A DNA stretch of 29,165 bases from a virus (Duplodnaviria > Heunggongvirae > Uroviricota > Caudoviricetes): positions 1-29,165 of the IMG/VR virus record IMGVR_UViG_2563366903_000025. The stretch is one strand, 5' to 3'. Each line of letters begins with the position of its first letter. Positions within the stretch are counted from its first letter, which is position 1. Position numbers and translations under genes: made by a program. A model generated the notes under the pieces. The model was not told the DNA's origin and made no database searches. It worked only from the letters and a program-made list of their open reading frames with translations. Below are positions 3,697-24,596 of this stretch, in pieces.

Positions 3697-3737
3697 GTAA
3701 AATCCCCGTCATATGACAATCAGTAAAGGAAATAAAT

Positions 3738-4128: not shown

Positions 4129-4677
4129 TCAGGCTGAAATGCCTTTATCAAATCCGGGTAACGCAATCTGCCCCTGCTGCTCCAGCCTGTCCAGCCTTGC
4201 CAGCAACTGAGGCTTCTTCACCCTGCCCCAGCGATTGAGCAAACGACCTGACATACTGGCAACATCTTTCTCTTTCATGTACTCCAGCATTACAGCGTTG
4301 CGTTCAGCTTCATAACTTTCACTGAACTTACGGAGTTCAGCGGACATCCAGTTAAAGGCATTAATATAGGCTTCTTTAACAGCATCAGCTTTTGCCCCGT
4401 TAAATCCCATAACCAGCATAACGAAGCCGCTAAAGTCCATGCGGTAGTAAATCTGCTTCTTGTCGAAAATCCCTAACTCATTGATTTTTTCGGCAACGCA
4501 AAAATGCGCTCTCCGGAAATCTTCAGAGCAATGGCAATTTTTCAGCGCCCTCAATACGTCCGCATGACGCTTACCAAACGCCTTAGCGATCTGAAAAGAG
4601 TCTGTTATTGGTTCGCCATCTGCCGCTGTTACCAGTTGGCGAAAATCAATACCGTCAACAATCGTCGGATAGTTCAT
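4129..4677 (-). CDS. rha: Rha-family phage regulatory protein
   Basis: 182 aa. N-terminus contains the Rha hallmark (QIAKAFGKRHADVLRAL). Confidence 0.75.
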   Translation of the reverse strand: MNYPTIVDGIDFRQLVTAADGEPITDSFQIAKAFGKRHADVLRALKNCHCSEDFRRAHFCVAEKINELGIFDKKQIYYRMDFSGFVMLVMGFNGAKADAVKEAYINAFNWMSAELRKFSESYEAERNAVMLEYMKEKDVASMSGRLLNRWGRVKKPQLLARLDRLEQQGQIALPGFDKGISA

Positions 4678-4853: not shown

Positions 4854-5321
4854 TTAATTCAGGCACTGAGTGCGGATATAGTCCTGTGCCCCTTCCAGCT
4901 GCTTCTGCATCAGCATCAACCGCTCTCTGAGGGTGAAATAATCCCGTTCAGCGGTGTCTGCCAGTCGGGGGCCGGTTGCATTATCCACGCCGGAGGTGCC
5001 GGTGGCTTCACGCACGGTACCGGAGCAGGTGGCGTTGATCCGCAGGCGCTTACGACCAGCGGCAACATCAGCACGCAGAGTTTCATTTTCAGCTCTCGCA
5101 TCAGCTAATTCCCTCGAGTATTTTGCATCGAGCGCAGCAACATCACGCTGGCGCACCTGCATGTCAGTAATGGTTGCGTTTGCCAGCTCCAGCTCTCTGG
5201 CTTTTTTATCGCGCTGCGCTTTGTAGGTGATGGCGTTATCGCGGTAATGGTTTGCTGCCAGCCACAGCGCACCGCAGCCAACCGCCAGGACAATAATCAC
5301 CACACACAGAACACGGTTCAT
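4854..5321 (-). CDS. Rz: Rz i-spanin
   Basis: 155 aa with N-terminal TM segment and coiled-coil body ([20 protein letters not shown]...[15 protein letters not shown]), closely resembling phage 21/lambda Rz as I recall it. Start overlaps the methyltransferase stop (ATGA). Confidence 0.88.
4916..5086 (-). CDS. Rz1: Rz1 o-spanin lipoprotein (embedded in Rz in the +1 frame)
   Basis: From ATG 5086: [17 protein letters not shown]..., a signal peptide with lipobox (VSAC) followed by a proline-rich body. Embedded position within Rz is diagnostic. Confidence 0.8.
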
Positions 5322-6262
5322 ATCACTACCATTTCACTGTTTTCTTTTTTCAGGCGTTTTTTTGCAACAGCGAAATACCGGTCATCCTTTTCTATTCCGG
5401 TAAACCATCTCCCCGTCCGGATACACGCAACACCTGTTGAACCACTCCCCATAGTAAAATCCAGGACCATATCGCCGGGGTTACTGTACGTCTGAATCAG
5501 CTCTTCCAGTAAGGGCACCGGCTTCTGAGTGGGGTGAAAACGCACTTTTTCCCGTGAGTACTCCAGCACATTTGAACGGTATTTTCTCCCGGCGGGGAGA
5601 TTAAACACCTTTTGACCGTAGGCATGATTAAGCTGACACATCGCTTCATATGTCATGAACCCCGGCATCCGGTCGATGCCAAAGCGTTCGATTAATTCGT
5701 TGTACGTTGCCCGTGAGCAGAGGGAAAACTGCGTGGTGTTAACCCTGAAAAAGTGCTCAGCCCGACAGTGTCCAAGCACCTTGTTAACCTCCTTGCCTGA
5801 CCGGTAACCGGTGAAGGAAAGAATGCTTCTGACGTATTCCCTCAGCGGGTGCTTTTTCTCACTATCATATTTTTTGCTGAACACAACAATGTCCTCGAAC
5901 AGCGATACCGGCGCCTTTGGGGCTACCAGCGGATTGGCAAAATGATTTTTTTTCCACACCATGCGATACGAAAACGGCAGATTGTTCAGCGCCTGAGTAA
6001 TCATCGTGCTGGTGTACGGCTCCTGACCGAACAGAATCAGTGTCCCGTTTACCCTCAGCAGACGCTCACACTGTAAGAATATCTCCACCGGGGGTAATGC
6101 TTCATCCCATGATGCTTTCCCTGAATCCCATGAAGGCAGGTTTAGCCCCTTAATGGTTCCATAGGGTGGATCAACGAGGATAAGGTCAATGCTTCCTTCC
6201 GGTAACGTTGGCATAATCTCCAGACAGTCACCATGATACAGAGAACTGTTCATCTCTTTCAC
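5318..6262 (-). CDS. DNA methyltransferase (beta-class N6-adenine or N4-cytosine; orphan, no restriction partner seen)
   Basis: 314 aa. N-terminal DPPY motif (LILVDPPYG) and C-terminal AdoMet-binding motif ([15 protein letters not shown] with upstream HPTQKP). Motif order IV...I suggests the beta class. No adjacent endonuclease-like ORF. Confidence 0.8.
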
Positions 6263-6390
6263 TCCAGCAGACCGGCCGAAGCCAACGCCATCCAGGCGAT
6301 GGAAAGAAAAAGAGCAACCAGCATGAGTGAAAATGAAACGCCGACAATCACACAGAGGACCTTTGCCGACGTTATGAGTTTGTCTGACAT
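6259..6390 (-). CDS. Small single-TM membrane peptide (43 aa)
   Basis: From ATG 6390 with an AAGGGG RBS: [43 protein letters not shown]. Stop overlaps the methyltransferase start (ATGA). Confidence 0.35.
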   Translation of the reverse strand: MSDKLITSAKVLCVIVGVSFSLMLVALFLSIAWMALASAGLLE

Positions 6391-6395
6391 CTTTA

Positions 6396-6488
6396 CCCCT
6401 TGATAGCAGTAATTAACTGGGCAACCACCCATAAAAACGGAATCAGCCAGACCAGCAAAAATTTCCAGTCCATTTTTATCATCTTCAT
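6396..6488 (-). CDS. Small hydrophobic peptide (30 aa)
   Basis: My translation from ATG 6488, which overlaps the antirepressor stop (ATGA): MKMIKMDWKFLLVWLIPFLWVVAQLITAIKG. Below the ORF-track length cutoff. Confidence 0.3.
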
Positions 6489-7180
6489 GCTGCGGTAGCT
6501 CTCCATGCAGCAAGCAGACCAGCAATCCACTCAACACCTTTTGGGGTGAATTTAACCTGCGTAAAAGCATGACCATTGCCCGCCTCGCCCGTTTTCACGC
6601 TAAACCGCCCCGCATCCAGGTGATGCGAGTAAGGCGTCATTTTTCCAGCGAGGCGATACATTATTCCGTTCTCCAACAAAAACAGCCGGAAATCGGTTTC
6701 TTTGATACCGAGTAACTTAGCAACTTCCCGGAATCCCATCAGACCAGATGCTTCAACATAGTTATCAACAAATTCGGCCTTCGGCGCTGCTATTGCCAGT
6801 TGATTTTCCAGCACTGCTTTCTGTTCAGCCAGTTTTGCCGCAAATCGCAACGCCTCAGGTAAAGTCCGGGGGATCTGAATACCATGCATCGCTTTGAGTC
6901 TTGCCAGCACAGAACGACGAACGGCCTTTGACTCCCTCATGCCAACGAGCATCATCTGGTCAAAATCCAGATCATAGTATGCCGTTCTTGTCTGGTTATT
7001 GTTTAACCGGAATTTTTTTCCGGTTCCATCAAGCTCTAGCTCATCCTCAATTTTTGCAAGAAACTTACGCGGTTCATGAGGGACTTCTCCGGCTTCTGCC
7101 CGGGCTGGATTAATAATGTTATTCAGAAAATCCAGACTACTCATGGATATTTCATGATCGACAGAAATCATCTCTTTCAT
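6485..7180 (-). CDS. Antirepressor-like protein with KilA-C-type C-terminal domain
   Basis: 231 aa. C-terminal segment LPEALRFAAKLAEQKAVLENQLAIAAPKAEFVDNYVEASG... is paralogous to the C-terminus of the 13088..13816 gene ([40 protein letters not shown]). Confidence 0.65.
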   Translation of the reverse strand: MKEMISVDHEISMSSLDFLNNIINPARAEAGEVPHEPRKFLAKIEDELELDGTGKKFRLNNNQTRTAYYDLDFDQMMLVGMRESKAVRRSVLARLKAMHGIQIPRTLPEALRFAAKLAEQKAVLENQLAIAAPKAEFVDNYVEASGLMGFREVAKLLGIKETDFRLFLLENGIMYRLAGKMTPYSHHLDAGRFSVKTGEAGNGHAFTQVKFTPKGVEWIAGLLAAWRATAA

Positions 7181-7453
7181 GGTTGATTCCTTTTAGTGAT
7201 GAACCCTGCGCACAGGAATAACCAGCCCAAAGAGGGTTAACCAGACCACTGCCGGTTATCCACCAGGGCTCATCCTGAAAGGTTCTTTGGTTTATTTACG
7301 CTTGTGCGAAGCGCAGAAATGACAAAGGCACCATTACGGTGCCTCTGCGTGAAATAATGTTCCTGACTTTATTCACTTACATTTTGCCAGCTCGCAGGAT
7401 TTCGTGTTATCCGCCCGCGTTGGCCAACGTCATTTTTCAGCAAAATATTCTGC

Positions 7454-7987
7454 TTATCTGTCGATTCCCCAGCACGCCAGCGCGCTCTCCTGGTCTCGCC
7501 GGGATACCTGACCGTAACAGTTATTTGAGCGAATACGGCAGTCCCTGCCACCGTCCTTAATCCACCAGCGAATCGCCTCACATGCTCCCCTGCGATCACC
7601 AGCATTAATTCGTTTATAAAACGTCGACGGGAAACACTTACCGGGGCCAATGTTGTACGGACAGAATGACGCGATCCCCGCTTTCTGGGGTTCGGTCAGT
7701 GGCACCCGGATGTTTTTCTCCACCCATGCCAGCGCCTTATCACGCTCAATGGCATTAACCCGGTCGCATTTTTCCTTCGACAGCTTCATGCCAGGAATAA
7801 CAGGCTTACCATCCACCCGGGTGGCTCCACGGCAGATGGTCCAGATACCCGCACCATCACGGTATGCTGTGGTGTGGTTGCCTTCTTTTTCATCCAGAAA
7901 CTGGTCGAGAATGTCAGGCGCAGAAGCGCCAGCGGCAATCAGCGCCAGAACGGCAGCCGATAAACCATAGCGGAGTTTTCTGCTCAC
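7454..7987 (-). CDS. R: SAR endolysin (phage 21 R-like lysozyme)
   Basis: 177 aa with an N-terminal signal-anchor-release-like hydrophobic segment (LSAAVLALIAAGASAP), followed by a lysozyme-like body. Sits immediately downstream of the holin. Confidence 0.85.
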   Translation of the reverse strand: MSRKLRYGLSAAVLALIAAGASAPDILDQFLDEKEGNHTTAYRDGAGIWTICRGATRVDGKPVIPGMKLSKEKCDRVNAIERDKALAWVEKNIRVPLTEPQKAGIASFCPYNIGPGKCFPSTFYKRINAGDRRGACEAIRWWIKDGGRDCRIRSNNCYGQVSRRDQESALACWGIDR

Positions 7988-8932: not shown

Positions 8933-10915
8933 TTATGATGATGCCCGGCTTTCGTTAACTTTGACTGTGACCGTATCAAGCAGTACCGGATACGTCGCTT
9001 TTGCCCCCGTGATATCTGTCAGCGTCAGCGTATCTGCTGTAAAGCCATCATTTGTCCACATCACCAGGTCAAACGCAGACTGCTCTGCATCATCAATCAC
9101 CGGCACCACTTTTTCGCTGTTATTTCCCGCAAAGCGGAAAACAACTGTATGCCAGTTATGGTCAAATGCCCCAAATGTGCCCAGTTGCGCATTCGACTCC
9201 CCCTTGTGGTACATCAGATTCAGATTTGATGCATCCGTCTGAAGGAAGAAGGACGCCAGCATGCTGTTTGCTGTCGCGCCTGACGCCCACTGCGACACCG
9301 GCCAGTACAGACCAAAGACAAACTGACCGTTAACCAGTTCGACACCCTCCGGGATCTTAAACCGCACGGCAATTTCACCTCCCTTACTGAGAAGATTTTT
9401 TGCCTCCTCCACCGCAACAGTACGGAACATCTTCCAGGAGGTCAGTTTACCCGGCTGTTTTTCCAGTCGCAGCGCCTTCCTGCCACTGTCATCCGTCACA
9501 GTGCCTTTACCACCGGACGCATTCCACTGCTGCTCTGTCCATACACCACTGCCACTGTTCGCATCATATCCGGCCACCATTCTTGTTACGGCTTCAGTAT
9601 GACCGCCTGCAGAAGTACCTGCACCCTGCTGTTGCGTCGGACCCGCAGAGCCAGACTGTGCATCCCCCGTGGAGGCTGGCGTGGTCGCCAGCGGTGCAGA
9701 CTGCCCGCTCAGGAACGGCAGCAAACGCCCGGCTCGCACCAGTATCTCTCCTGCCAGCCGATCTGAAACAATGCCTCTTCGCGCCCAGGAGCTGAAGTGC
9801 GTTTTACGATCGGCTGTCGTCCAGTTACCATTACTGCGTGACGCGGCACCATAGTATCCCGCCGTGATAATGTCCGGATCTTCTGACGGCTCGTTTGTCG
9901 GCACATTCGCACCATGCTCATCCGTCATCAACGGCACAAAGTGAATATTCTGCGCCGCCTTGCCTTTATAGCCTCCGTAAACCGCCTCATACTGCACTGC
10001 ATACTTCGCCTTCCAGTCGTACGTGGTGTCACCGCAAATCCACGGGACGCCGGACGTTGTCCCGCCAATACACTGGTCTGCAATATCTGCCAGGTCTGCA
10101 CGGTATTTATTTACCATGGCAAGAAAAAGTGCATTGTGCTCTGCATGTCTCCCCGAACTGACATCTTTTTCCCCCTGCATCCAGATCACCGACAACAGCA
10201 CGTTTTTCGGATTTTTCTTCAGGGCTGCACGCGTTCTGCTGACCAGGTCACGATACAACGGTTTATCCACCCCCCACAGGGAAGAGCCCGCTGTCGCACC
10301 CGACGCCTCATTAAACGCGCCCTCTGCTCCCGCAGTAAATCCCGAATCGCCACGTCCACACGGGACAAGAAGGATCCCCGCACGGGCAGGCATAAACGGC
10401 AGCAGTTTTTTGGCCACATGCAGGGCATGCCCCACACAGCCATACTGCCCTTTATTGAGGTCTGCTTTCGGGTGATTCAGATTACTCACGTCCTGCACAT
10501 CATGCAGACAATGGTCTGCAGGAATAATGTCGTTATATGCACAGGCCGCACCGCCCGGTGTCACCGTGCTGCGACGCGCCAGTTGCTTAATACGCGGGTC
10601 AGGACGATCATACGTATCCGGCAGCGGCAGCCCCTCGCCAAAAGACATCGAGTTGGACTGCCCGGCCAGCGCAATGACAAAGTAATATTCCGGTTCGCTG
10701 GTGGTGCTGATAACAGCGCCACCATCACCCGACGGTTGCACCACCACCGGTGTGGTGACATCACCTTCCGCCGCAATGGCCTGCATCAGGGTATAGGGCG
10801 TGATGGCCACCGGACTGCCAAATGGCTGCCACCCCTCCTTCAGTTTTTGAGTCAGTCGCTCCGCAAGGTCTGACGGCGACGCCGCCCTGACCACGTCATA
10901 GTGTTTAAATGTCAT
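8933..10915 (-). CDS. nanS: Prophage sialate O-acetylesterase (NanS-p-like; SGNH/SASA esterase)
   Basis: 660 aa. N-terminus MTFKHYDVVRAASPSDLAERL (DUF1737-like), a GQSN block (FVIALAGQSNSMSFGEG) typical of SGNH/SASA esterases, and a long C-terminal extension. Positioned downstream of Q, as NanS-p genes are in Stx and lambdoid prophages. Confidence 0.8.
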   Translation of the reverse strand: MTFKHYDVVRAASPSDLAERLTQKLKEGWQPFGSPVAITPYTLMQAIAAEGDVTTPVVVQPSGDGGAVISTTSEPEYYFVIALAGQSNSMSFGEGLPLPDTYDRPDPRIKQLARRSTVTPGGAACAYNDIIPADHCLHDVQDVSNLNHPKADLNKGQYGCVGHALHVAKKLLPFMPARAGILLVPCGRGDSGFTAGAEGAFNEASGATAGSSLWGVDKPLYRDLVSRTRAALKKNPKNVLLSVIWMQGEKDVSSGRHAEHNALFLAMVNKYRADLADIADQCIGGTTSGVPWICGDTTYDWKAKYAVQYEAVYGGYKGKAAQNIHFVPLMTDEHGANVPTNEPSEDPDIITAGYYGAASRSNGNWTTADRKTHFSSWARRGIVSDRLAGEILVRAGRLLPFLSGQSAPLATTPASTGDAQSGSAGPTQQQGAGTSAGGHTEAVTRMVAGYDANSGSGVWTEQQWNASGGKGTVTDDSGRKALRLEKQPGKLTSWKMFRTVAVEEAKNLLSKGGEIAVRFKIPEGVELVNGQFVFGLYWPVSQWASGATANSMLASFFLQTDASNLNLMYHKGESNAQLGTFGAFDHNWHTVVFRFAGNNSEKVVPVIDDAEQSAFDLVMWTNDGFTADTLTLTDITGAKATYPVLLDTVTVKVNESRASS

Positions 10916-11109
10916 GAATCCTCCCGGTCGGGATAATGTTGTGAGTCAGATGAGGGAACGGGCTGAAGTCCGGAAGTTACAGGACAATGGCAGGAGGAAG
11001 ACTACAGCCCGCAATACGAAAAAGGCCGCGCTATTGCGCAGAGTGATTACTGTCGGATATTATTCGCCAGCTGAAATATTACTTCACGTTTTGTTGTTTA
11101 TTCCTTGCC

Positions 11110-11138
11110 GCCCGCGTCTCCCAGCGCGGGCTTTTTTT
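11110..11138 (+). terminator. Plus-strand intrinsic terminator in the Q-nanS intergenic region
   Basis: GCCCGCG-tctcccag-CGCGGGC followed by T7. Confidence 0.5.
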
Positions 11139-11150
11139 GTCCATAAGAAA

Positions 11151-11168
11151 GCCCCTCCGGAGAGGGGC
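11151..11168 (-). terminator. Minus-strand terminator-like hairpin, convergent with the previous terminator
   Basis: GCCCCTC-cgga-GAGGGGC. Minus-strand RNA is followed by UUUCUUAU. Confidence 0.35.
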
Positions 11169-11469
11169 TGGAGAGTGGCGCTATGTGCCATTGCATGGTG
11201 CCGGGTGCCTCCCGGTGAGTTCAGTATCAGCACCTGAACCCGCACAGAAAGGATAAGGGTCGGTGACAAAACACCAGTTGCTGATTGCCCCTCCGCACAG
11301 GGGGATTCACCATGCCAGTTTCTTTTAACAAACTCCCCGCAAACCAGACAACAGTCAACCGCCTGAATTGTGAGGTATTTAAAAATTTCAACGGGTAACT
11401 GATACCCTGCTAATCGCCTGATGCTTTCTTTTTCAGCAACGGGAAAGCAACAACCACCACACCCACCAG

Positions 11470-11496
11470 CCGCCCATTTACCACAAATAAAAAAGC
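11470..11496 (-). terminator. Intrinsic terminator after the 65-aa gene
   Basis: Minus RNA: GCCUUC-cgcagu-GAAGGC followed by UUUUUUAUUU. Confidence 0.5.
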
Positions 11497-11498
11497 CT

Positions 11499-11696
11499 TC
11501 ACTGCGGAAGGCGTCTGTAACAACCGAACTGATAGTCTGCCAGACCCGCCATAACCAGCTGGGTCAGTATTAACTGGCAGCGTTCGCGTGAAAGGTAAGT
11601 ATTCTGCGCAATCTCCCCGACTGTCGCCGGTTCGGTGGCACTTAATTCATTAAACACCACTCTGGCGGTTTCTGTCATATCCTGCTGTTTTAGCAT
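11499..11696 (-). CDS. Hypothetical small protein (65 aa from ATG 11696)
   Basis: MLKQQDMTETARVVFNELSATEPATVGEIAQNTYLSRERCQLILTQLVMAGLADYQFGCYRRLPQ, a possible small winged-helix-like protein. First gene after tR' in the late transcript. Confidence 0.4.
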   Translation of the reverse strand: MLKQQDMTETARVVFNELSATEPATVGEIAQNTYLSRERCQLILTQLVMAGLADYQFGCYRRLPQ

Positions 11697-11816
11697 GTCT
11701 TTTTCCCTTTTCCGGTTAACGTGACACACCAATAACTCTTGTCGAAAAAGCCAGCAAGCTGAAAGACCGGTATTCACCACCACCAGCACGTTTACTGTAC
11801 TGATGCGATTTCAGTC

Positions 11817-11840
11817 ATAAAAAACCCGCCAGGCGGCGGG
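11817..11840 (-). terminator. tR'-like terminator downstream of Q (end of the short pR' leader transcript)
   Basis: CCCGCC-gccu-GGCGGG followed by UUUUUU on the minus strand, about 60 bp downstream of the Q stop, matching lambda pR'/6S/tR' organisation. Confidence 0.55.
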
Positions 11841-11900
11841 TTTAAGTTGTGTGGCGTAGTAACCACTCTTAACATACTGACATACTTTTTGCGGACCGCG

Positions 11901-12293
11901 CTAATCATTTTTTACTTTTTTGGGCAGCCAGTCGTCCATCTCCAGCCTTACACCCAGCATCGACAGACATCCGTCAATAAATCCTTCAGCAATCTGCATC
12001 TCAATTCGTATTGCCTTTTCGCTCTTCTTTCTTGTTCTGGCAATCTGCCTTTTTGATATGCGCAGCAGATAATGAGCTACCAGCAGCGAATACTCGTCCG
12101 GTTTTTTCTTCTTCAGGCGCGTAAGGCAGTTTTCGATGATAAGGCCGTCATCATCGCTGCAGGCCGGGCGAGGTTTAGCGGTGGATGGTAAAAGGCCTTT
12201 AAATCCAGCAGCTATCGGAGAATAGTCCACCCCGGTGTTACCACTTGCCGCCCATGCCCCCCAGCGTTCAAGAACCTGCTGAATATCACGCAT
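11901..12293 (-). CDS. Q: Late antiterminator Q (933W/21-type Q family)
   Basis: From ATG 12293: [35 protein letters not shown]...LKKKKPDEYSLLVAHYL...RLEMD, matching the Q933W-type pattern as recalled. Overlaps the ninH 3' end. Confidence 0.8.
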   Translation of the reverse strand: MRDIQQVLERWGAWAASGNTGVDYSPIAAGFKGLLPSTAKPRPACSDDDGLIIENCLTRLKKKKPDEYSLLVAHYLLRISKRQIARTRKKSEKAIRIEMQIAEGFIDGCLSMLGVRLEMDDWLPKKVKND

Positions 12294-12486
12294 CAGAGTC
12301 TTTACCCTTATCCCATCCACGATGGACCATAAGGACACCGTTGACGACGGCGTGCCGTTTGCCTTCTTTATCGCCAATATATTTTCTGACCGTGTTGCGA
12401 CTACAGTTCAGTATTCTGGCTACCTCGGTCTGATTTTCATATGCCTCAACGAGCATGTCAGGAATGGTTTTTACTGTGAACGTCAT
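12286..12486 (-). CDS. ninH: NinH
   Basis: 66 aa [58 protein letters not shown], near-identical to lambda NinH as recalled. Confidence 0.85.
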
Positions 12487-13088
12487 GCGGCCTCACTTCT
12501 GCTGTTTCGCAGGTCTTTGAGTTTCTGTTGGTACTCTGCCTTGATGGCCCTGCACTCTTCGACAGTCCAGCGATGGCGGTTATGGTTTGATTCGATTTCA
12601 TCTACTGCTTCCTGCCCGATGCGGCTAATCAGTTCGACGCGATACGGAACGAGATTTCCGCTTTTGTGCTGGTTGCACACCACGCATTGCTTGTGAATAT
12701 TGCGTTCATCAAATCGGAGTTGAGGTGCCGCAGCAGTTGTCCGGTAATGTCCGGCATCCCACTGAGCAGACGTGAGCGTTCCGCACGAGATACATGGTAA
12801 GTCGCGGTCTCTTTCTCTGATGAAGGCGTTTACGGCTTGTTGGGCTTGTTTAATCCAGTAACTGCGGGGCTTTAAGGCGAGTTTTCGAATCTTCAGTTTA
12901 TCTTTCTGTTTCTGCTCCTCTCGTCGTCGTTTCTTCTCTGCTGCTTTTTCCGCTTTTTCGCGTTCTTTACTTCGTCGTTCGAGTGCTAATTGAGTTCCGT
13001 GTTCCGGGCAGCACCACCACTGATTTGAGAATGCCGGGTGAAACCATTCCTTGCATATTTTGCATTTCCTTCGCGCTGGTTTAGCCAT
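12483..13088 (-). CDS. ninG: NinG (Rap) recombination protein
   Basis: 201 aa, near-identical to lambda NinG over most of its length ([61 protein letters not shown]...). Confidence 0.9.
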
Positions 13089-13816
13089 TAAGCAGCCTCC
13101 CCTGTTACTTTCAGCATTCCGTTATCGAGCAGCTTTCTGGTCAGCCACTGTTGACCACGCCCGGTGATTTTTGTGGTGAACGATATCTGTATTCCGTGAT
13201 TTGTGTTGACCGCTGTTTCTTTCACTGTGAAATAGCCGCGCTCCATATATTCCTGCATTGGCACATTTCGCCGGGAACCTGAAGTAATAAGGATTTTGTG
13301 ATCGCGCATCCACGCAAACAGTTTGTTTGGACCAATTCCAACAACCTTTGCATAGTTTCCAATCAAAATTCCGCTGGCCTCGCCAACGCGATCGGCAAAC
13401 TCAACTTTAGGTGCTGCGAGAGCAAGCTGTTTCTCCAGTTCAGCCTTCTGGTCTTCAAGGTCGGCCGCAAGGCGCAATGCCTCAGAAAAGGTTTGTGGTA
13501 TTTTCGCGGTTGCCCCTTCGAGTTCTCGCCAACGGTCAACAAGACGAGCGGTGAATTCCGGCGACAACTGAGCGACGACAATAATGCTGTCGCGCTTACC
13601 TTTTTCGCCTTCGAAGACGTAATGCTCGTACTGAACATTGAACCCTAAGTTATTGATTCTTTCGGAAACCTCAATTTGAGGAAGCCGGATAACTCCACTT
13701 TTAACCAGCGTTTCGATGGTTCGTTTCACATTGTCATGACGCTTACCTGTAAGCTCAGCGATTTCAATGCTAGTCATTTTGATGACGTTGCTATTTATCA
13801 GCTCGTTCATTGTCAT
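13088..13816 (-). CDS. Rha N-terminal / KilA-C C-terminal antirepressor-like protein (Roi-like)
   Basis: 242 aa. N-terminal Rha hallmark ([19 protein letters not shown]) and C-terminal KilA-C-like domain. Located between ninG and the nin accessory gene. Confidence 0.7.
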
Positions 13817-18862: not shown

Positions 18863-18900
18863 TTCTTAATATTTCCAATAGTGAATAGTTAGTTGAAAGG

Positions 18901-18918
18901 TATGCGTGGAAACGCATA
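18901..18918 (-). promoter_or_regulatory. Hairpin between nutR and cII (tR1 position)
   Basis: TATGCGT-ggaa-ACGCATA perfect 7-bp stem. No U-tract, so if it terminates it is not a canonical intrinsic terminator. Confidence 0.3.
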
Positions 18919-18947
18919 TGGCCTTAGTTGGTCAGATATCTTGGGGC

Positions 18948-18962
18948 TCGCTTTGTCAGCGA
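18948..18962 (-). promoter_or_regulatory. nutR boxB-like hairpin (P22 type)
   Basis: Minus-strand TCGCTGACAAAGCGA closely matches the nutL boxB GCGCTGACAAAGCGC at 21811-21825. A boxA-like CGCTATTTT lies upstream on the same strand. Confidence 0.6.
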
Positions 18963-19000
18963 CGTAGGACGAATGTCCATTGTGAAAATAGCGGTGTTAC

Positions 19001-19228
19001 TTATGCAGCCAGAAGGTTCTTTTTGCTTATTTCAAGCATTTCGCTTGCTTGATATTTGCCACCAGAAATCTCTTCGATTTTTGATGCGTATTTCGTTTTC
19101 CCAAAAAACTCAGTCTTAGGGAGGAAGCCGTTTTTGAGCCACTTATAGACAGCCCTTTCGCTAACTCCACAAGCCTTCGCAACTTCAGGGATGCCGACAC
19201 CTTTAATCGGCTCATCAAGATTTTGCAT
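19001..19228 (-). CDS. cro: Cro-like repressor (75 aa from ATG 19228)
   Basis: Small HTH protein (GIPEVAKACGVSERAVYKWLKNG) divergent from cI, with an AAGGA RBS. Position immediately right of the operator region. Confidence 0.7.
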   Translation of the reverse strand: MQNLDEPIKGVGIPEVAKACGVSERAVYKWLKNGFLPKTEFFGKTKYASKIEEISGGKYQASEMLEISKKNLLAA

Positions 19229-19243
19229 AGGGATATCCTTTTT

Positions 19244-19258
19244 CGTACTTTCAGTACG
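19244..19258. promoter_or_regulatory. Operator palindrome in OR (CGTACT-TTC-AGTACG), overlapping the pR start region
   Basis: Perfect 6-bp arms. A related AGTA-TCG-TACT element sits at 19295-19305 just before the cI ATG. Confidence 0.55.
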
Positions 19259-19259
19259 C

Positions 19260-19287
19260 ATTATGATTGAACTGAAAGTTTTTGCAA
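19260..19287 (-). promoter_or_regulatory. pR-like promoter for cro
   Basis: Minus strand reads TTGCAA-16 nt-CATAAT, immediately upstream of the operator palindrome and the cro RBS. Confidence 0.5.
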
Positions 19288-19306
19288 GTGCTTTAGTATC
19301 GTACTC

Positions 19307-20014
19307 ATGGTTCAGAATGAAAAAGTGCGCAAAGAATTCGCCCAGCGGCTAGCGCAAGCCTGTAAAGAAGCTGGTCTTGATGAACATGGTAGGGGAATGG
19401 CTATAGCCCGTGCCCTTTCTCTTTCGTCCAAAGGCGTTAGCAAATGGTTTAATGCTGAGTCTTTACCGCGTCAGGAAAAAATGAATGCGCTTGCGAAATT
19501 TCTAAACGTTGATGTTGTTTGGCTTCAGCACGGCACTTCGTTAAATGGAGCGAATGATGAAGATACTCTTTCATTTGTTGGCAAATTAAAAAAAGGGTTA
19601 GTGCGCGTGGTTGGTGAGGCAATTCTTGGTGTTGATGGTGCCATCGAGATGACCGAAGAGCGCGATGGGTGGCTCAAAATTTATAGCGATGATCCAGATG
19701 CCTTTGGTCTTCGTGTGAAAGGAGACAGCATGTGGCCCAGAATAAAATCAGGAGAATATGTACTCATTGAGCCTAACACCAAAGTATTTCCGGGGGATGA
19801 GGTGTTTGTCAGAACTGTTGAAGGACACAACATGATCAAAGTTCTTGGCTATGACAGAGACGGAGAATACCAATTTACAAGCATCAACCAGGACCACAGG
19901 CCAATAACGTTGCCTTATCATCAAGTAGCAAAGGTGGAGTATGTGGCTGGTATTCTGAAGCAATCTCGCCATCTGGATGACATCGAGGCAAGGGAGTGGC
20001 TGAAAAGTTCGTGA
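19307..20014 (+). CDS. cI: CI-type prophage repressor (HTH plus LexA/S24-like autocleavage domain)
   Basis: 235 aa. N-terminal HTH region, then a C-terminal domain with S24-like features (GDSMWPRIKSGEYVLIEP...). Divergent from cro across the operator region. The ATG sits directly after the operator, suggesting a leaderless pRM-type transcript as in lambda. Confidence 0.88.
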   Translation: MVQNEKVRKEFAQRLAQACKEAGLDEHGRGMAIARALSLSSKGVSKWFNAESLPRQEKMNALAKFLNVDVVWLQHGTSLNGANDEDTLSFVGKLKKGLVRVVGEAILGVDGAIEMTEERDGWLKIYSDDPDAFGLRVKGDSMWPRIKSGEYVLIEPNTKVFPGDEVFVRTVEGHNMIKVLGYDRDGEYQFTSINQDHRPITLPYHQVAKVEYVAGILKQSRHLDDIEAREWLKSS

Positions 20015-20096
20015 CTTCATCGTCACATAGCTGGTAACCAGTGGCCTGAAGAGACGTTTGGGTGATGTACATAGCATTTCTGGATAAAAATACAGA

Positions 20097-20138
20097 TTCC
20101 CTTTATGGGAAATGAATCTATAATTCCCAAAGAGGGAA
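20097..20138 (+). promoter_or_regulatory. Promoter with twin operator palindromes upstream of the toxin gene
   Basis: Perfect -10 TATAAT at 20119-20124, flanked by two TTCCC-N5-GGGAA dyads (20097-20111 and 20124-20138). The -35 is weak. Confidence 0.5.
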
Positions 20139-20150
20139 CAAAATCGGATT

Positions 20151-20438
20151 ATGAAGGTCTTAAACGTAGAGAGGCTTCACAGTTTTAGCCGGAAGCACAA
20201 TCAGGCCAAGGGGGCTTTAGACTCTTGGTATGATGAAGTGATAAGAGAAAACTGGAAAACGACTCAAGACATACGGAATAGATTTAATTCTGCCGACTTC
20301 CTTCCTAACAACAGGGTAATTTTTAATATAAAAGGCAATAACTATCGGCTCGTTGTCCAAGTTGTTTACCAGGCAGGAATGGTCATAGTTGAAAGAGTTG
20401 GAACTCATGCAGAGTACGACAAGTGGAGGCTTAAATGA
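20151..20438 (+). CDS. higB: HigB-family toxin (RelE/ParE superfamily)
   Basis: 95 aa. C-terminal ...GNNYRLVVQVVYQAGMVIVERVGTHAEYDKW parallels E. coli HigB ...NELRVVAMVFFESQKCYIREVMTHKEYD as recalled. Toxin-first order typical of hig loci. Stop overlaps the next start (ATGA). Confidence 0.75.
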   Translation: MKVLNVERLHSFSRKHNQAKGALDSWYDEVIRENWKTTQDIRNRFNSADFLPNNRVIFNIKGNNYRLVVQVVYQAGMVIVERVGTHAEYDKWRLK

Positions 20439-21091
20439 ATCGAACTAGCTGGCGCATCATTAAAAATAGTGAAGAGCATGCTGCAGCTATGGAAAGGCTC
20501 ATTGAACTTGCGTCTAGTGATTTACAACCTGGAACTGAAGATTTTGATGAGTTTGAACTACTAGGCTTGCTTATCGAGCACTATGAGTCACGCGAGTTCC
20601 CTATGGACAAGCCAGATCCCATAGAAGCAATCAAGTTCCGTATGGATCAACAAGGCCTCTCTTATGCCGATATGAAACAATACATTGGCTCAGCATCTAA
20701 AGTATCTGAGGTCTTAAATCGTAAGCGTCCATTAAGTCTTTCAATGATCCGTAGACTACATGACGGACTTGGAATTCCTGCAGATATCTTAATTCAAGAT
20801 ATGAGCGCAATTGAATGGAGCCTAGTTGACGCAGAGGAAGAAGAAACAGCCATGACTAGCGTCATTGCTCGGTGTGAGTCAGCCGTCACATCACCTTCTG
20901 CTTATTTCGCTGAAAAGGCTACAGAATCTTACTTTTCAAAAATGTTGTTCAGCGCAGTAAGGGGTAATGGCAAATGCAAAGAAAAACGGAATGTTTTTTC
21001 TTTGATAAGTAACTTGTCATCAAGTTTCACAGCGGCTAGCAACCTGAATGACGAAATGACTTCTGACGGAAATTACTTATTATTACCATGA
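20435..21091 (+). CDS. higA: HigA-family HTH antitoxin with about 95-aa C-terminal extension
   Basis: 218 aa. Residues up to about 125 match the HigA pattern (PDPIEAIKFRMDQQGLSYADMKQYIGSASKVSEVLNRKRPLSLSMIRRLHDGLGIPADILI). Canonical HigA ends there; this protein continues with an acidic, Ser-rich tail. Confidence 0.75.
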   Translation: MNRTSWRIIKNSEEHAAAMERLIELASSDLQPGTEDFDEFELLGLLIEHYESREFPMDKPDPIEAIKFRMDQQGLSYADMKQYIGSASKVSEVLNRKRPLSLSMIRRLHDGLGIPADILIQDMSAIEWSLVDAEEEETAMTSVIARCESAVTSPSAYFAEKATESYFSKMLFSAVRGNGKCKEKRNVFSLISNLSSSFTAASNLNDEMTSDGNYLLLP

Positions 21092-21492
21092 AAATTGAAC
21101 TCATTAGCAAAAAAGTTGAACGCTTGGTTATGACACGGCTAGAAGGCGATTCAACAGCAAAAAAAGCCATAAAAACAACCGTTAATCTAAATAATGAACT
21201 TTACACTAATGTGAAGGATTCAAAGCTATTTAGAGTGAGATATTTTGCCTCCGTAACTATTGAAGGCAGGCTTGAGATGGACATCACATACGACTTTGAC
21301 TTCCGGTCAGAAGATGATTTTTCTCATGAAATGGCAAAATCATATGAGGTAAGGTCCATTGCTCCCAATATGGCATATCCCTATATAAAAACATATGCCG
21401 AGCAAATTATCCTCATGTCAAACCTTGGTAGGTTCACTCTGCCTTATTTTGATTTCTTGGCCAATCCCATGGAAACGAACAGTAATAAGTGA
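21088..21492 (+). CDS. SecB-like chaperone candidate (third gene of the cassette)
   Basis: 134 aa, translationally coupled (ATGA). Segments FRVRYFASVTIEG and APNMAYPYIKTYAEQIILMSNLGRF resemble E. coli SecB ([34 protein letters not shown]) as recalled from memory. Confidence 0.55.
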   Translation: MKIELISKKVERLVMTRLEGDSTAKKAIKTTVNLNNELYTNVKDSKLFRVRYFASVTIEGRLEMDITYDFDFRSEDDFSHEMAKSYEVRSIAPNMAYPYIKTYAEQIILMSNLGRFTLPYFDFLANPMETNSNK

Positions 21493-21500
21493 AATTCCCC

Positions 21501-21528
21501 ACCCGGCCTCAGCGCCGGGTTTTCTTTG
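21501..21528 (+). terminator. Intrinsic terminator closing the cI-proximal operon (t-imm position)
   Basis: ACCCGGC-ctcagc-GCCGGGT followed by TTTTCTTT, 9 nt after the last stop codon. Confidence 0.6.
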
Positions 21529-21810
21529 CCTCACGATCCCCCACCTAAAAAAACATAACCATTTGTATTTATAGATGTAACTCGCTAAACCATGCAGTTC
21601 TGATCCCTGCCGCATAACCTTCATCAGCCACATTTTCAAAAATAAATTTCCTTATATATCAGAATCATACTTCGTAGAGTTAATAAATCACCAAAATTCG
21701 TACCAATAGTTCTTGATAATGTCGAACTATTGGTTCATCATTATCGTCATCAGCAGGACGCATTACTCACCAGGGCGGTGAATATACAACGATTCGAATA
21801 TGAATCTACG

Positions 21811-21825
21811 GCGCTGACAAAGCGC
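21811..21825 (+). promoter_or_regulatory. nutL boxB (P22 type)
   Basis: GCGCTGACAAAGCGC, identical to the P22 boxB as recalled, about 165 bp upstream of N. Confidence 0.7.
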
Positions 21826-21990
21826 AATAACCAAAGTGAACTTTGGGGTGTGGTGAAGGGTTCATGGACGGGAATATGTCGCACGTAAAGCGGCGAGGCC
21901 TGCGGGACTATTGCCGAATTGAAGTAGGCCGAAACAGGTCGAAATGGGTCTCCCACCTACCACACCACCAAAGTTCATCAGGAGGTCTAT

Positions 21991-22374
21991 ATGACACGCA
22001 GAACTCAGTTCAAAGGCAATTCACGTTCTCGTCGTCGTGAGCGTTTAAAGGCAAAGGCATTAGCTAACTGCGTACTGGCCCGCGAAGAAGCAATAAGTTC
22101 AGAAGTATTACACCGCCCTACTCTAAGCAGAGCGCAGATTCAGGCTAAAGGTACTCACGAAACGCCTGAGCGCATAGAAGACGCTAAGCCAATTAAGTTC
22201 ATTGCACAGGACGTGATCTGGCAACAGAAAGAATACAGACGCAATCTGGAGCGAGCAGCCATTGTGTACGCGAATGAGTTTGGACATAAGCAACCAGAAA
22301 CTGGTGTATGTCTTCCAAACGTAGCCATTTACGCGGCAGGCTACCGGAAATCAAAACAACTGACGGCAAGATGA
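21991..22374 (+). CDS. N: Antiterminator N (P22 gp24-like)
   Basis: 127 aa with N-terminal arginine-rich motif (GNSRSRRRERLKAKALA) and C-terminus LPNVAIYAAGYRKSKQLTAR matching P22 N as recalled. AGGAGG RBS. Confidence 0.8.
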   Translation: MTRRTQFKGNSRSRRRERLKAKALANCVLAREEAISSEVLHRPTLSRAQIQAKGTHETPERIEDAKPIKFIAQDVIWQQKEYRRNLERAAIVYANEFGHKQPETGVCLPNVAIYAAGYRKSKQLTAR

Positions 22375-22715
22375 CTTGTGTTGGTCGCCAGAAAATGAAA
22401 TTAGGCAGCAAACCACTTATTTGAGGACTGATACATGAGAGTAAAAACATGGGCACAAGCCCATTAAGTGGTCGTATTTTTCAAGGAACATTAAACACTG
22501 AAAAAGGAATGTGGGTAGGAAAAAAAAGAAGATGACACCGAACAGGCAGTTAAGGCAGTAGCCGAACACCTGATGATAAAAGACCAGAAATATGCATACG
22601 AAACGAAGGATGGCAAATGGCTGATAATAAGCCATCAACTGGTTGATAAATTACCAGAAGAGTTTATTGCTGGTTAAATTCACTTTGGAACAAATAACAG
22701 AATAAACACTGCACT

Positions 22716-23331: not shown

Positions 23332-24012
23332 ATGGGAACTGCAACATTAATACTCGGTGAATCTGGCACCGGAAAATCAACCAGCATGAGAAATATCAAT
23401 CCAGAGGAAGCAATACTTATAAAACCAATAGGCAAGCCGCTACCATTTAAATCAAAAGAATGGCTGGCATGGGATGCCAGAGCAAAAAAAGGAACCGTAG
23501 TTACCACTGACAAATGGGACGTAATAGTTGCCGTAATTAAGCGTGCTCACGAATACGGGAAAAGAATCGTTATTGTTGATGACTTCCAGTATGTGATGAG
23601 CAATGAGTTTATGCGCCGCTCAGAAGAAAAATCGTTTGATAAATTCACTGAGATAGGCCGCCACGCATGGGAGGTGATTAAGGCTGCACAGGATGCACCT
23701 GATGACCTGAGAGTCTATTTTCTTGCACACACCGAAGAAACCCCTATGGGGCGTGTGAAAATGAAAACTATCGGCAAAATGCTGGACGAGAAAATCACTG
23801 TCGAAGGCATGTTTACTATAGTTCTTCGCACCCTTACCCGTGATGACCAGTTCTTTTTCACTACAAAAAACAACGGTGCAGACACTGTTAAATCCCCAAT
23901 GGGAATGTTTGATTCCAATGAGATTGATAACGATCTCTCTTTCGTCGATGCCACTGTTTGTGATTACTACGGCATCAATAATGTTCATCAAATTAAGGAA
24001 AACGCCGCATGA
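23332..24012 (+). CDS. Sak4-like RecA-core ATPase (single-strand annealing/recombination protein)
   Basis: 226 aa. Walker A GESGTGKS near the N-terminus, Walker B-like RIVIVDDFQY. Occupies the gam-bet-exo position. Confidence 0.6.
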   Translation: MGTATLILGESGTGKSTSMRNINPEEAILIKPIGKPLPFKSKEWLAWDARAKKGTVVTTDKWDVIVAVIKRAHEYGKRIVIVDDFQYVMSNEFMRRSEEKSFDKFTEIGRHAWEVIKAAQDAPDDLRVYFLAHTEETPMGRVKMKTIGKMLDEKITVEGMFTIVLRTLTRDDQFFFTTKNNGADTVKSPMGMFDSNEIDNDLSFVDATVCDYYGINNVHQIKENAA

Positions 24013-24596
24013 GCAACGTGATTTTTACTTATAACGAAGAAGCAGCACTGACCGCAGGGCAAGGTGGTTTTATTAACGAAACTGGCGCTCATATCATTAC
24101 CATTACTGAAGCAGAACTAAAGCAATCAGAAAAAGGAGCCAAATTTATTGAGTTTTCTGGCGAATCCGACGACGGACGTAAAATCCAGTATCTTAGCGTT
24201 TGTGTTCAGAAAAATGACGGAACGGAAAACAAGTTTGGTGCAAATGTCGTTCATGCCATGATGGGGTGTGTTGGGATTAAGCAGTTAACGCAACATATGG
24301 TTTCCGCCAGTAAATTTGTTGCACCTGAATTTCATGGAAAGAAAATCGGGTTAGTGCTCCAGAAAGTATTAACCACAAACAAAAGGACTGGTGCAGACAG
24401 CTATCAGATGGAAATACGCATCCCGTTTATTGCACAAACAGGTCAAACCCTTAAAGAAAAGGCAGAAGGCAAGCAACCAGAAACTATCACCAACATGGTT
24501 GCCCATCTCAAAGATAAAGACAATCGCTCTAAAAACGTAAGCCAGAATCATGCAGATGATTATGGTTACAGCCAGAACGATTACCCTTCTTTCTGA
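24009..24596 (+). CDS. DUF669-like protein, putative ssDNA-binding partner of Sak4
   Basis: 195 aa, coupled to the Sak4-like gene (ATGA). Acidic/aromatic C-terminal tail (DDYGYSQNDYPSF) reminiscent of SSB tails. Family assignment from memory. Confidence 0.45.
   Translation: MSNVIFTYNEEAALTAGQGGFINETGAHIITITEAELKQSEKGAKFIEFSGESDDGRKIQYLSVCVQKNDGTENKFGANVVHAMMGCVGIKQLTQHMVSASKFVAPEFHGKKIGLVLQKVLTTNKRTGADSYQMEIRIPFIAQTGQTLKEKAEGKQPETITNMVAHLKDKDNRSKNVSQNHADDYGYSQNDYPSF

What the first reader, a model, noticed from the sequence alone, without database searches (positions are those of the whole stretch)
20097..21528. Prophage toxin-antitoxin-chaperone (TAC-like) cassette in the rexAB slot next to cI
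Three translationally coupled genes (ATGA overlaps at 20435-20438 and 21088-21091) sit exactly where lambda carries rexA/rexB, between the cI stop and the t-imm/pL region. Gene 1 reads as a HigB/RelE-family toxin. Gene 2 has a HigA-type HTH core but runs about 95 aa past where canonical HigA ends. Gene 3 carries SecB-like segments. This is the architecture of TAC systems such as M. tuberculosis HigB1-HigA1-SecB(TA), where the antitoxin's C-terminal chaperone-addiction extension makes it depend on a dedicated SecB-like chaperone. The cassette has its own operator-flanked promoter and terminator and is AT-richer than its neighbours, so it looks like an acquired, lysogen-expressed module, plausibly an abortive-infection or superinfection-exclusion system, or a prophage-stabilising addiction module. 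I am not aware of a TAC system characterised in this prophage slot; this is stated from memory, not from a search.
Basis: partly seen in the sequence, partly recalled or inferred. Interest (0 to 1): 0.88.

Follow-up and report, generated by a model that had tools for sequence, protein, structure and literature searches.

The report
Known HigBAC prophage anti-phage defence cassette
The three genes are a real toxin-antitoxin-chaperone module sitting where phage lambda carries rexAB, but a nearly identical copy, the E. coli NT1F31 HigBAC anti-phage system, was already described and tested in 2024, so this is a correct reading of something already known.

Summary
Three ORFs joined by ATGA overlaps lie between the cI stop and the terminator that precedes pL/N: higB (20151-20438), higA (20435-21091) and higC (21088-21492). 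Gene 1 is a HigB toxin (Pfam PF09907, 4.6e-30). Gene 2 has a HigA-type HTH followed by a 97-aa tail. Gene 3 has no Pfam SecB hit, but its model (pLDDT 86.9) best matches the M. tuberculosis SecB-like TAC chaperone, then E. coli SecB.

The cassette is a near-identical allele of E. coli NT1F31 HigBAC (Mets et al. 2024, bioRxiv 10.1101/2024.02.24.581848). higB matches at 286/288 nt. The published HigA 121-146 peptide matches exactly. All eight residues studied there fall at the same positions (HigA W128, F158, F188, Y214; HigC Y39, N41, R49, D71). Cloning primers match apart from engineered codons. That paper places HigBAC in the variable locus downstream of cI that holds RexAB in lambda. It shows chaperone addiction, translation inhibition, and defence triggered when HigC binds the lambda tail protein gpV.

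Corrections:
- The swapped module spans about 20064-21501.
- Its promoter-operator block is its own.
- The terminator is the slot's shared t-imm, not the cassette's.

Novelty: already known. Interest: low.

The parts
19307..20014 (+). cI repressor (context; left border of the slot)
   Evidence: Peptidase_S24 at 4.4e-16 plus HTH_3. RefSeq annotates it as a LexA family transcriptional regulator.
20064..20150 (+). Cassette-specific 5' leader with the promoter and operators. Palindromes TTCCCTTTATGGGAA (20097-20111) and TTCCCAAAGAGGGAA (20124-20138) flank a TATAAT -10 at 20119-20124. A GAGGGA Shine-Dalgarno sequence lies upstream of higB.
   Evidence: - Homology with the prophage that carries the stk cargo ends at 20063/20064.
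- The palindromes occur twice against 0.03 expected by chance.
- The block is conserved in the K. aerogenes and S. marcescens modules.
- From the first palindrome through the second (20097-20138) the block is identical in the NT1F31 fragment; the nearest differences are at 20057 and 20140.
- Promoter activity and HigA binding are inferred, not shown.
20151..20438 (+). higB, a ribosome-dependent mRNA interferase-type toxin (95 aa)
   Evidence: - PF09907 at 4.6e-30.
- PADLOC PD-Lambda-2_A at 5e-42.
- Solved E. coli HigB 5IFG_A at 1e-4.
- 286/288 nt identical to NT1F31 higB, with substitutions R8K and I31R.
20435..20797 (+). higA, residues 1-121: the toxin-neutralising region and the HTH DNA-binding part of the antitoxin
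   Evidence: - HTH_3 matches residues 67-118.
- Solved E. coli HigA 5IFG_B matches at 7e-5.
- PADLOC PD-Lambda-2_B matches its positions 3-125 at 3.8e-50.
- This part is nearly invariant across genera.
20798..21091 (+). higA, residues 122-218 plus the stop codon: the chaperone-addiction (ChAD) extension with aromatic anchors W128, F158, F188 and Y214
   Evidence: - The residues fall at the published positions.
- The published peptide HigA121-146 matches exactly.
- W128, F158 and F188 are invariant, and Y214 stays aromatic, in the Klebsiella and Serratia homologues.
21088..21492 (+). higC, a SecB-like chaperone and phage sensor (134 aa)
   Evidence: - The AF2 model has pLDDT 86.9 and pTM 0.80.
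- Foldseek top hits are 5MTW (Mtb Rv1957 with a ChAD peptide; E 5e-7, TM 0.73-0.75), then E. coli and H. influenzae SecB.
- PADLOC PD-T4-9_C matches at 3.2e-11.
- Pocket residues Y39, N41, R49 and D71 are present. N41, R49 and D71 are invariant in the 20-sequence family alignment and Y39 is nearly invariant, at least 90%.
21501..21528 (+). Intrinsic terminator (ACCCGGCC-TCAGCG-CCGGGT followed by a T-run). This is the slot's shared t-imm equivalent, not part of the cassette.
   Evidence: - Terminator scan.
- Homology with the stk-cargo prophage resumes at about 21502.
- 91% identity to the lambda sequence that starts at the rexB stop codon.
21991..22374 (+). N antiterminator (context; right border of the slot, downstream of the oL/pL region at about 21700-21745)
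   Evidence: PF25694 N_peptide at 2.5e-15. Palindromes lie at 21702-21745.

Best explanation
This is an allele of the HigBAC toxin-antitoxin-chaperone anti-phage system, carried as accessory cargo in the cI-to-t-imm slot (the rexAB position) of a lambdoid prophage.

**Resting state in the lysogen**
- The operon is probably transcribed by read-through from the cI promoter. No + strand terminator lies between cI and higB.
- It probably also uses its own promoter, regulated by HigA through two palindromic operators.
- HigB (an RNase-type translation inhibitor), HigA and a HigC tetramer assemble into an inert complex.
- HigA carries a 97-aa disordered C-terminal ChAD. Its four aromatic anchors (W128, F158, F188, Y214) make the antitoxin aggregation-prone unless they sit in the peptide-binding pockets of the SecB-like HigC.

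**On infection**
- An infecting siphovirus expresses its major tail protein. Lambda gpV, through its loop at residues 48-78 around W67, is the known case.
- The nascent tail protein competes with the ChAD for HigC.
- HigA is then lost, HigB is freed, translation stops and phage production is restricted.

**Shown here**
- The gene anatomy.
- The family and fold assignments.
- The slot homology and the cargo boundaries.
- Near-identity to the published NT1F31 system.

**Taken from the literature on the NT1F31 allele**
- Toxicity.
- Chaperone addiction.
- Translation inhibition.
- Defence against lambda-vir and Bas25.
- The gpV trigger.

**Inferred**
- That this allele behaves the same way.
- The promoter and operator function.
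- Read-through from PRM.
For: **Anatomy and families**
- ORFs and ATGA overlaps.
- HigB HMM match.
- HigA HTH match and relatives with solved structures.
- SecB fold for gene 3, with 5MTW as the best match.
- PADLOC matches to PD-Lambda-2_A and _B and to PD-T4-9_C.

**Identity with the published system** (Mets et al. 2024 main text and Dataset S1)
- HigA is 218 aa with a ChAD at residues 122-218.
- All eight named residues fall at the same positions.
- The HigA121-146 peptide matches exactly.
- higB is 286/288 nt identical.
- Across the 150-bp upstream region, the operators and the -10 are identical.
Apart from the engineered gcg codons they show only three single-base differences.

**Published function and slot statement**.

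**Slot and cargo**
- The same cI and N flanks hold a DUF3024 plus Ser/Thr-kinase cargo in O157:H7 strain Z852, with breakpoints at 20063/20064 and about 21501/21502.
- The t-imm homology to lambda begins at the rexB stop codon.
- The cassette is present in only 88 of 5426 complete E. coli genomes and in 30 phage records.

**Conserved three-gene module in other genera**
- K. aerogenes carries it in the cI-N slot.
- S. marcescens carries it in a different prophage location.
- The operator block and the ChAD aromatics are conserved in both.
Against: - No experiment exists on this exact allele. It differs from NT1F31 by at least HigB R8K and I31R, and probably by HigA R185Q.
- Only part of higA and higC could be compared directly, through primers and one peptide. 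The full NT1F31 fragment is truncated in the held supplement.
- Pfam's SecB model does not match gene 3, and the HTH_3 score is just below its cut-off.
- The generic promoter scan did not call the proposed promoter.
- The published defence assays used constitutive Ptet expression from pBR322, not a native lysogen.
Confidence: 0.93

Rival explanations
1. The cassette is mainly a prophage-stabilising addiction module or a stress-responsive TAC, like M. tuberculosis HigBA1-SecB(TA). On this view it has no role in defence against other phages.
For: - TA modules can stabilise mobile elements (general knowledge).
- The M. tuberculosis TAC was first described as stress-responsive (titles of PMC3581621 and PMC5105189).
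- No defence experiment exists on this allele in its native lysogen.
Against: - The near-identical NT1F31 allele protects against lambda-vir and Bas25.
- It is triggered specifically by gpV.
- Escape phages map to gpV S54P.
- The slot is a known defence-cargo site: RexAB in lambda and a kinase cargo in other prophages.
Confidence: 0.05
2. It is an ordinary two-gene higBA pair followed by an unrelated hypothetical gene. On this view the long HigA tail is a meaningless low-complexity extension.
For: - Gene 3 has no Pfam or NCBIfam hit, and RefSeq annotates it as a hypothetical protein.
- A profile search of PDB sequences with the gene 3 family finds nothing.
Against: - The model is a confident SecB fold whose best match is a TAC chaperone bound to a ChAD peptide.
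- PADLOC CmdC model match.
- The genes are translationally coupled by an ATGA overlap.
- The three-gene architecture and the ChAD aromatic anchors are conserved from E. coli to Serratia, at 61-66% identity.
- Published work shows that HigA neutralises HigB without HigC only when residues 122-218 are deleted.
Confidence: 0.01
3. It is a HigBAC allele with an altered or lost trigger specificity compared with NT1F31. It might sense a different tail protein, or be a decaying copy.
For: - Some amino-acid differences from NT1F31 exist.
- HigC family members diverge to 50% identity.
- The ChAD is the most variable part of HigA.
Against: - The known differences lie in HigB and at one ChAD position that is not an aromatic anchor.
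- All HigC segments that could be compared are identical, and the pocket residues are present.
- The cassette is 99.9% identical across 83 genomes and 30 phages, which argues against decay.
Confidence: 0.05

Closest known systems
E. coli NT1F31 HigBAC (Mets et al. 2024, bioRxiv 10.1101/2024.02.24.581848; to my memory later published in Cell Host & Microbe)
   Same: - Same three genes in the same order, with the same protein lengths (HigA 218 aa; ChAD 122-218).
- Same functional residues.
- Exact ChAD peptide match.
- higB is 99.3% identical at the nucleotide level.
- Same operators and -10.
- Same location downstream of a lambdoid cI, in the RexAB slot.
   Different: - A few substitutions: HigB R8K and I31R; HigA R185Q; seven changes in the leader just after cI; one in the terminator.
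- The host prophage differs. Here it is a mosaic relative of BP-4795 and the Stx1a phages.
- The paper's main text does not mention the Stx-phage or EHEC distribution.
M. tuberculosis HigB1-HigA1-SecB(TA), Rv1955-Rv1957, the founding TAC
   Same: - Same architecture and logic: toxin, antitoxin with a C-terminal ChAD, and a dedicated SecB-like chaperone.
- The chaperone fold is the best structural match: 5MTW, TM about 0.74.
   Different: - Only 16-17% sequence identity in the chaperone.
- The ChAD here is more than twice as long, with four aromatic anchors.
- NT1F31 HigA inactivation does not depend on ClpXP, unlike Mtb HigA1.
- This system is prophage cargo with a phage-sensing role, not a chromosomal stress module.
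CmdTAC / PD-T4-9 (Vassallo et al. 2022, PMC9519451; 2024, PMC11618068)
   Same: - It is also a prophage-borne TAC defence system.
- Gene 3 matches the PADLOC model of its chaperone CmdC at 3.2e-11 over the full length.
   Different: - The toxin is an mRNA ADP-ribosyltransferase, not HigB.
- The antitoxin is unrelated.
[quoted passage not shown] 2022)
   Same: - The HigB component matches PD-Lambda-2_A at 5e-42.
- Residues 5-127 of HigA match PD-Lambda-2_B at 3.8e-50.
- Both systems defend against lambda.
   Different: - PD-lambda-2B continues into a C-terminal peptidase domain (402-position model) instead of a ChAD.
- Its third gene is related to a P4 phage antitoxin, not to SecB.
- In PD-lambda-2 the B component is the toxic one.
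Lambda RexAB
   Same: - Same genomic position: after cI, before t-imm and pL.
- The flanking t-imm sequence is homologous.
- Both are lysogen-expressed exclusion functions.
   Different: There is no sequence or mechanistic relationship. RexAB is a two-component membrane-depolarising system (established knowledge).

Membership tests
Toxin-antitoxin-chaperone (TAC) systems | Three-gene operon in the order toxin, antitoxin, SecB-like chaperone | tested here: met
   Three co-oriented ORFs with ATGA overlaps. The three-gene order is conserved in Klebsiella and Serratia.
Toxin-antitoxin-chaperone (TAC) systems | The third protein adopts the SecB fold | tested here: met
   The AF2 model has pLDDT 86.9. 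Foldseek hits with probability 1.00 are 5MTW, 1QYN and 1FX3, at TM 0.70-0.77.
Toxin-antitoxin-chaperone (TAC) systems | The antitoxin carries a C-terminal chaperone-addiction extension beyond the canonical antitoxin domain | tested here: met
   The alignment to solved HigA ends at residue 118 of 218. The tail matches the published ChAD in length, in one peptide and in its aromatic anchors.
Toxin-antitoxin-chaperone (TAC) systems | The antitoxin neutralises the toxin only when the chaperone is present | not testable with these tools
   Shown experimentally for the near-identical NT1F31 allele. Inferred for this allele.
E. coli NT1F31 HigBAC (specific system) | Sequence identity of the three genes and their regulatory leader | tested here: met
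   - higB is 286/288 nt identical.
- 390/399 nt are identical over the leader plus the 5' part of higB.
- All mapped primer segments in higA and higC are identical except for two single bases.
- The peptide matches exactly.
- The full lengths of higA and higC could not be compared because the fragment is truncated in the supplement.
HigB toxin family (Pfam PF09907) | Score above the Pfam gathering threshold | tested here: met
   104.1 bits against a cut-off of 27. Solved E. coli HigB relatives also match.
HigA / Xre HTH antitoxins (Pfam PF01381 HTH_3) | Score above the Pfam gathering threshold | tested here: inconclusive
   20.9 bits against a cut-off of 23. However, solved E. coli HigA matches at 5e-5 to 7e-5 and PADLOC PD-Lambda-2_B matches at 3.8e-50.
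SecB (Pfam PF02556), sequence family | A match to the SecB profile | tested here: not met
   There is no Pfam or NCBIfam hit, even at E<=1. Membership is at the level of fold and of the TAC-chaperone profile (PADLOC PD-T4-9_C).
PD-lambda-2 | B component with a C-terminal peptidase domain, plus a P4-antitoxin-like C component | tested here: not met
   Only positions 3-125 of the 402-position PD-Lambda-2_B model match. No PD-Lambda-2 C component is present. System description.
CmdTAC / PD-T4-9 | ADP-ribosyltransferase toxin CmdT and the CmdA antitoxin | tested here: not met
   Only the chaperone model, PD-T4-9_C, matches. Genes 1 and 2 match HigB and HigA models instead.
Lambda rexAB slot cargo (moron between cI and t-imm) | Located between the cI stop and the t-imm terminator upstream of pL/N, and replaceable by other cargo | tested here: met
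   - Gene order.
- t-imm homology to lambda begins at the rexB stop codon.
- Alternative cargo sits between identical flanks.

The most novel reading that the evidence does not exclude
The kind of system and its position are both published. What the evidence leaves open is ecological and evolutionary.

1. This HigBAC allele is fixed at 99.9% identity in a lineage of Stx-converting and related prophages of EHEC, including O26:H11, the O157:H7 86-24 Stx2a phage, and BP-4795. There it may exclude lambda-gpV-type siphophages while sparing its carrier. The BP-4795 tail-tube protein shows no similarity to the gpV trigger loop.
2. The HigB-HigA core is a portable 'warhead' that has been recombined with two different C-terminal control modules. 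Here it is a ChAD plus a SecB-like sensor. In PD-lambda-2 it is an ImmA/IrrE-type peptidase plus a P4-like protein.
Probability: 0.4. Interest if true: 0.3.

Novelty: already known. Interest (0 to 1): 0.12.

Why it matters
The same system has a published mechanism: a SecB-like chaperone acts as the phage sensor, and lambda gpV competes with the antitoxin's ChAD.

What this window adds:
- The experimentally studied HigBAC is the cargo in the immunity region of BP-4795/H-19B-type Stx phages and their relatives. It is present in 88 of 5426 complete E. coli genomes.
- The exact recombination boundaries of the cargo are now defined (about 20064 to 21501).
- The cassette brings its own conserved operator-promoter block but uses the slot's shared terminator.

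These points help annotation, since RefSeq still labels higC as a hypothetical protein. They may also inform thinking about phage-phage exclusion in EHEC.

Tried and rejected
- **Pfam and NCBIfam on gene 3.** No SecB hit. A profile search of PDB sequences with the 20-member HigC alignment gave only a chance thioredoxin hit at E 1.1. Sequence methods therefore fail, and the fold comparison was needed.
- **Generic sigma-70 scan.** It did not call a promoter upstream of higB. The promoter is proposed only from the TATAAT and its conserved flanking palindromes.
- **Full-length comparison with NT1F31.** It was not possible because the TAC-region fragment in Dataset S1 is truncated after 399 nt. Primers and a peptide were used instead.
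- **Is it a PD-lambda-2 system?** Considered because of the very strong PADLOC hits, and rejected. The peptidase domain and the C component are absent.
- **Does the carrier phage hold a gpV-like trigger?** The tail genes lie outside the window. In BP-4795, which has the same cassette, the major tail subunit shows no similarity to gpV 48-78. This is only a weak, indirect indication.
- **stx genes and tRNAs in the window.** Looked for between Q and the esterase gene. None were found.
Full report
**1. Observation**

The region holds three same-strand ORFs: 20151-20438 (95 aa), 20435-21091 (218 aa) and 21088-21492 (134 aa).

Upstream lies a cI-type repressor (19307-20014; Peptidase_S24 plus HTH), with a divergent cro-like gene. 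Downstream, after a hairpin terminator (21501-21520 plus a T-run) and an oL/pL-like palindrome cluster (21702-21745), lies an N antiterminator (21991-22374). This is the lambda order cI, [rexA rexB], t-imm, pL, N, read on the opposite strand of the conventional map.

The cassette is 40.2% GC, against 45.6% for cI and 48.8% for the window.

**2. What the three proteins are**

- **Gene 1** is a HigB toxin. It matches PF09907 at 104 bits against a cut-off of 27, and solved E. coli HigB structures are its relatives.
- **Gene 2** has an Xre/HigA HTH at residues 67-118. Its HTH_3 score is 20.9 bits, just under the cut-off of 23. Solved E. coli HigA (138 aa) aligns its residues 71-135 to residues 53-118 here. 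A canonical HigA would therefore end near residue 121, leaving a 97-residue tail.
- **Gene 3** has no Pfam or NCBIfam match, and a family profile finds nothing among PDB sequences. It does match the PADLOC model of CmdC, the SecB-like chaperone of CmdTAC/PD-T4-9, at 3.2e-11 over its full length.
  - An AlphaFold2 model was built on 20 homologues. It is confident (pLDDT 86.9, pTM 0.80) and consists of a four-stranded sheet plus a long helix.
  - Foldseek against the PDB returns, first, M. tuberculosis Rv1957 SecB-like chaperone bound to the HigA1 ChAD peptide (5MTW; E 5e-7; TM 0.73-0.75). E. coli and H. influenzae SecB follow.

**3. It is a published system**

A literature search found Mets et al. 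2024 (bioRxiv 10.1101/2024.02.24.581848), which characterises HigBAC from E. coli NT1F31. [quoted passage not shown]

Its details fit this window residue for residue:

- HigA is 218 aa with a ChAD at residues 122-218.
- The ChAD aromatics are W128, F158, F188 and Y214.
- The HigC pocket residues are Y39, N41, R49 and D71.
- All eight are found at those positions here.

The paper's Dataset S1 gives further direct comparisons:

- The synthetic peptide HigA121-146, QDMSAIEWSLVDAEEEETAMTSVIAR, is an exact match.
- The full NT1F31 higB matches at 286/288 nt, with substitutions R8K and I31R.
- The first 399 nt of the cloned locus match at 390/399. The two operators and the -10 are identical.
Outside the engineered alanine codons they show only three single-base differences: one predicts HigA R185Q, one is synonymous, and one lies in the terminator stem.

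The window therefore carries a near-identical allele of NT1F31 HigBAC.

**4. Mechanism**

The following comes from the paper, for the NT1F31 allele.

- HigBA is toxic without HigC. HigC rescues it, and deleting residues 122-218 makes HigA chaperone-independent.
- HigB specifically blocks protein synthesis.
- The system protects against lambda-vir and Bas25.
- Escape phages carry gpV S54P. gpV co-purifies with HigC during infection, and co-expression of gpV triggers toxicity. The gpV 48-78 peptide competes with the ChAD peptide for HigC.
- The model is as follows: the tail protein diverts the chaperone, HigA is lost and HigB is released.

I infer that the window allele works the same way.

From the sequence I add three points.

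- Two TTCCC-N5-GGGAA palindromes flank a TATAAT at 20119-20124, with 2 matches against 0.03 expected by chance.
- This block is conserved in the Klebsiella and Serratia versions of the module, including the Serratia context that has no upstream cI. That supports an autonomous, probably HigA-autoregulated promoter, although the generic scan does not call it.
- No + strand terminator separates cI from higB, so read-through from the cI transcript is also likely.

**5. Cargo status and boundaries**

- The cassette occurs at 99% identity or better in 30 phage records, including BP-4795, ST2-8624 from O157:H7 86-24, and many Stx1a phages.
- It occurs in 88 of 5426 complete E. coli genomes.
- By contrast, parts of the wider region from upstream of cro through N (18900-22400) match 1685 genomes.
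- In O157:H7 strain Z852 the same cI and the same pL/N flank enclose DUF3024, a hypothetical gene, a Ser/Thr kinase and a further short hypothetical ORF.
- Homology to that prophage stops at window 20063/20064 and resumes at about 21501/21502, which is the terminator stem.
- The same terminator sequence matches lambda at 91%, beginning at the rexB stop codon.

The swapped unit is therefore about 20064-21501. It brings its own leader and promoter, but it uses the slot's shared t-imm.

The three-gene module also occurs elsewhere. In K. aerogenes it lies between cI and N. In S. marcescens it lies next to DUF927 and P22-type ejection genes. In both, the N-terminal HigA domain is nearly invariant while the ChAD is divergent but keeps its aromatic anchors.

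**6. Comparison with known systems, and verdict**

- It is a member of the TAC class. The architecture, SecB fold and ChAD criteria were tested and met. Chaperone dependence could not be tested here.
- It is specifically the HigBAC system of Mets et al.
- It is not CmdTAC, because only the chaperone is related.
- It is not PD-lambda-2. [quoted passage not shown]
- It is related to RexAB only by position.

The claim that drove the 0.88 interest score, an uncharacterised TAC in the rexAB slot, is pre-empted by the 2024 paper. Novelty: already known. Interest: about 0.1.

The residual open points are modest:

- The system's fixation in Stx-phage and EHEC lineages.
- The self-compatibility of carrier phages. 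BP-4795's tail-tube protein lacks any similarity to the gpV trigger loop.
- The sharing of the HigBA core with PD-lambda-2.

Noticed in passing
window 20151-20815 (higB plus higA residues 1-127): The HigB-HigA(N-terminal) core matches the PADLOC models of PD-lambda-2 A and B very strongly (5e-42 and 3.8e-50). PD-lambda-2B continues into a peptidase domain instead of a ChAD. This suggests that one TA core has been recombined with two different control or sensor modules. The main text of the HigBAC paper does not mention it.
   Followed up: partly
window 8933-12377: Q antiterminator (11901-12377, - strand) and a nanS-p-like DUF1737/SASA esterase (8933-10915, - strand) are separated by about 1 kb. 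That gap holds no stx-sized ORFs and no tRNA genes, although the closest phage records are Stx1a-converting phages and BP-4795 (93.9% over 67% of the query). The window looks like an stx-negative relative.
   Followed up: partly
L004-L006 (Serratia marcescens), module at 3055-4405: A homologous higBAC module (HigC 61% identical) lies not beside a cI repressor but between a DUF927 protein and P22-type ejection genes (gp7, Inj_translocase). It keeps the same operator-promoter block.
   Followed up: partly
L002 1676-3753 (E. coli O157:H7 Z852): The same cI and N flanks carry a different cargo in the slot: DUF3024, a hypothetical protein, a Ser/Thr protein kinase and a small ORF. Other genomes in the same search list a Clp-fold serine proteinase or DUF1828 proteins at this place.
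   Followed up: partly
window 4854-7987: The lysis region is interrupted by extra genes. A DNA methylase (5318-6262) overlaps the start of Rz (4854-5321), and a KilAC/ANT antirepressor-like gene (6485-7180) lies between the lysozyme (7454-7987) and the methylase. Two further Rha/ANT-type genes sit at 4129-4677 and 13088-13816.
   Followed up: no
window 23332-24596: The pL operon downstream of N carries an AAA_24-type ATPase (23332-24012) and an unassigned 195-aa ORF. BP-4795 has an ssb/cIII/kil/gam/bet/exo arrangement there instead, so the early-left region is mosaic relative to other carriers of the cassette.
   Followed up: no
window 19001-19261: The mechanical ORF for the cro-like gene (86 aa) starts only 45 bp from cI. 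The RefSeq homologue is shorter (228 nt), which implies that the real start is the internal ATG near 19228 and that the oR region is about 78 bp.
   Followed up: no
L003 8188-9033 (phage BP-4795 ORF64): BP-4795 carries the identical cassette. Its major tail subunit shows no similarity to the lambda gpV 48-78 loop that triggers HigBAC. This fits the idea that the carrier phage does not trigger its own defence, but the result rests only on a peptide BLAST.
   Followed up: partly
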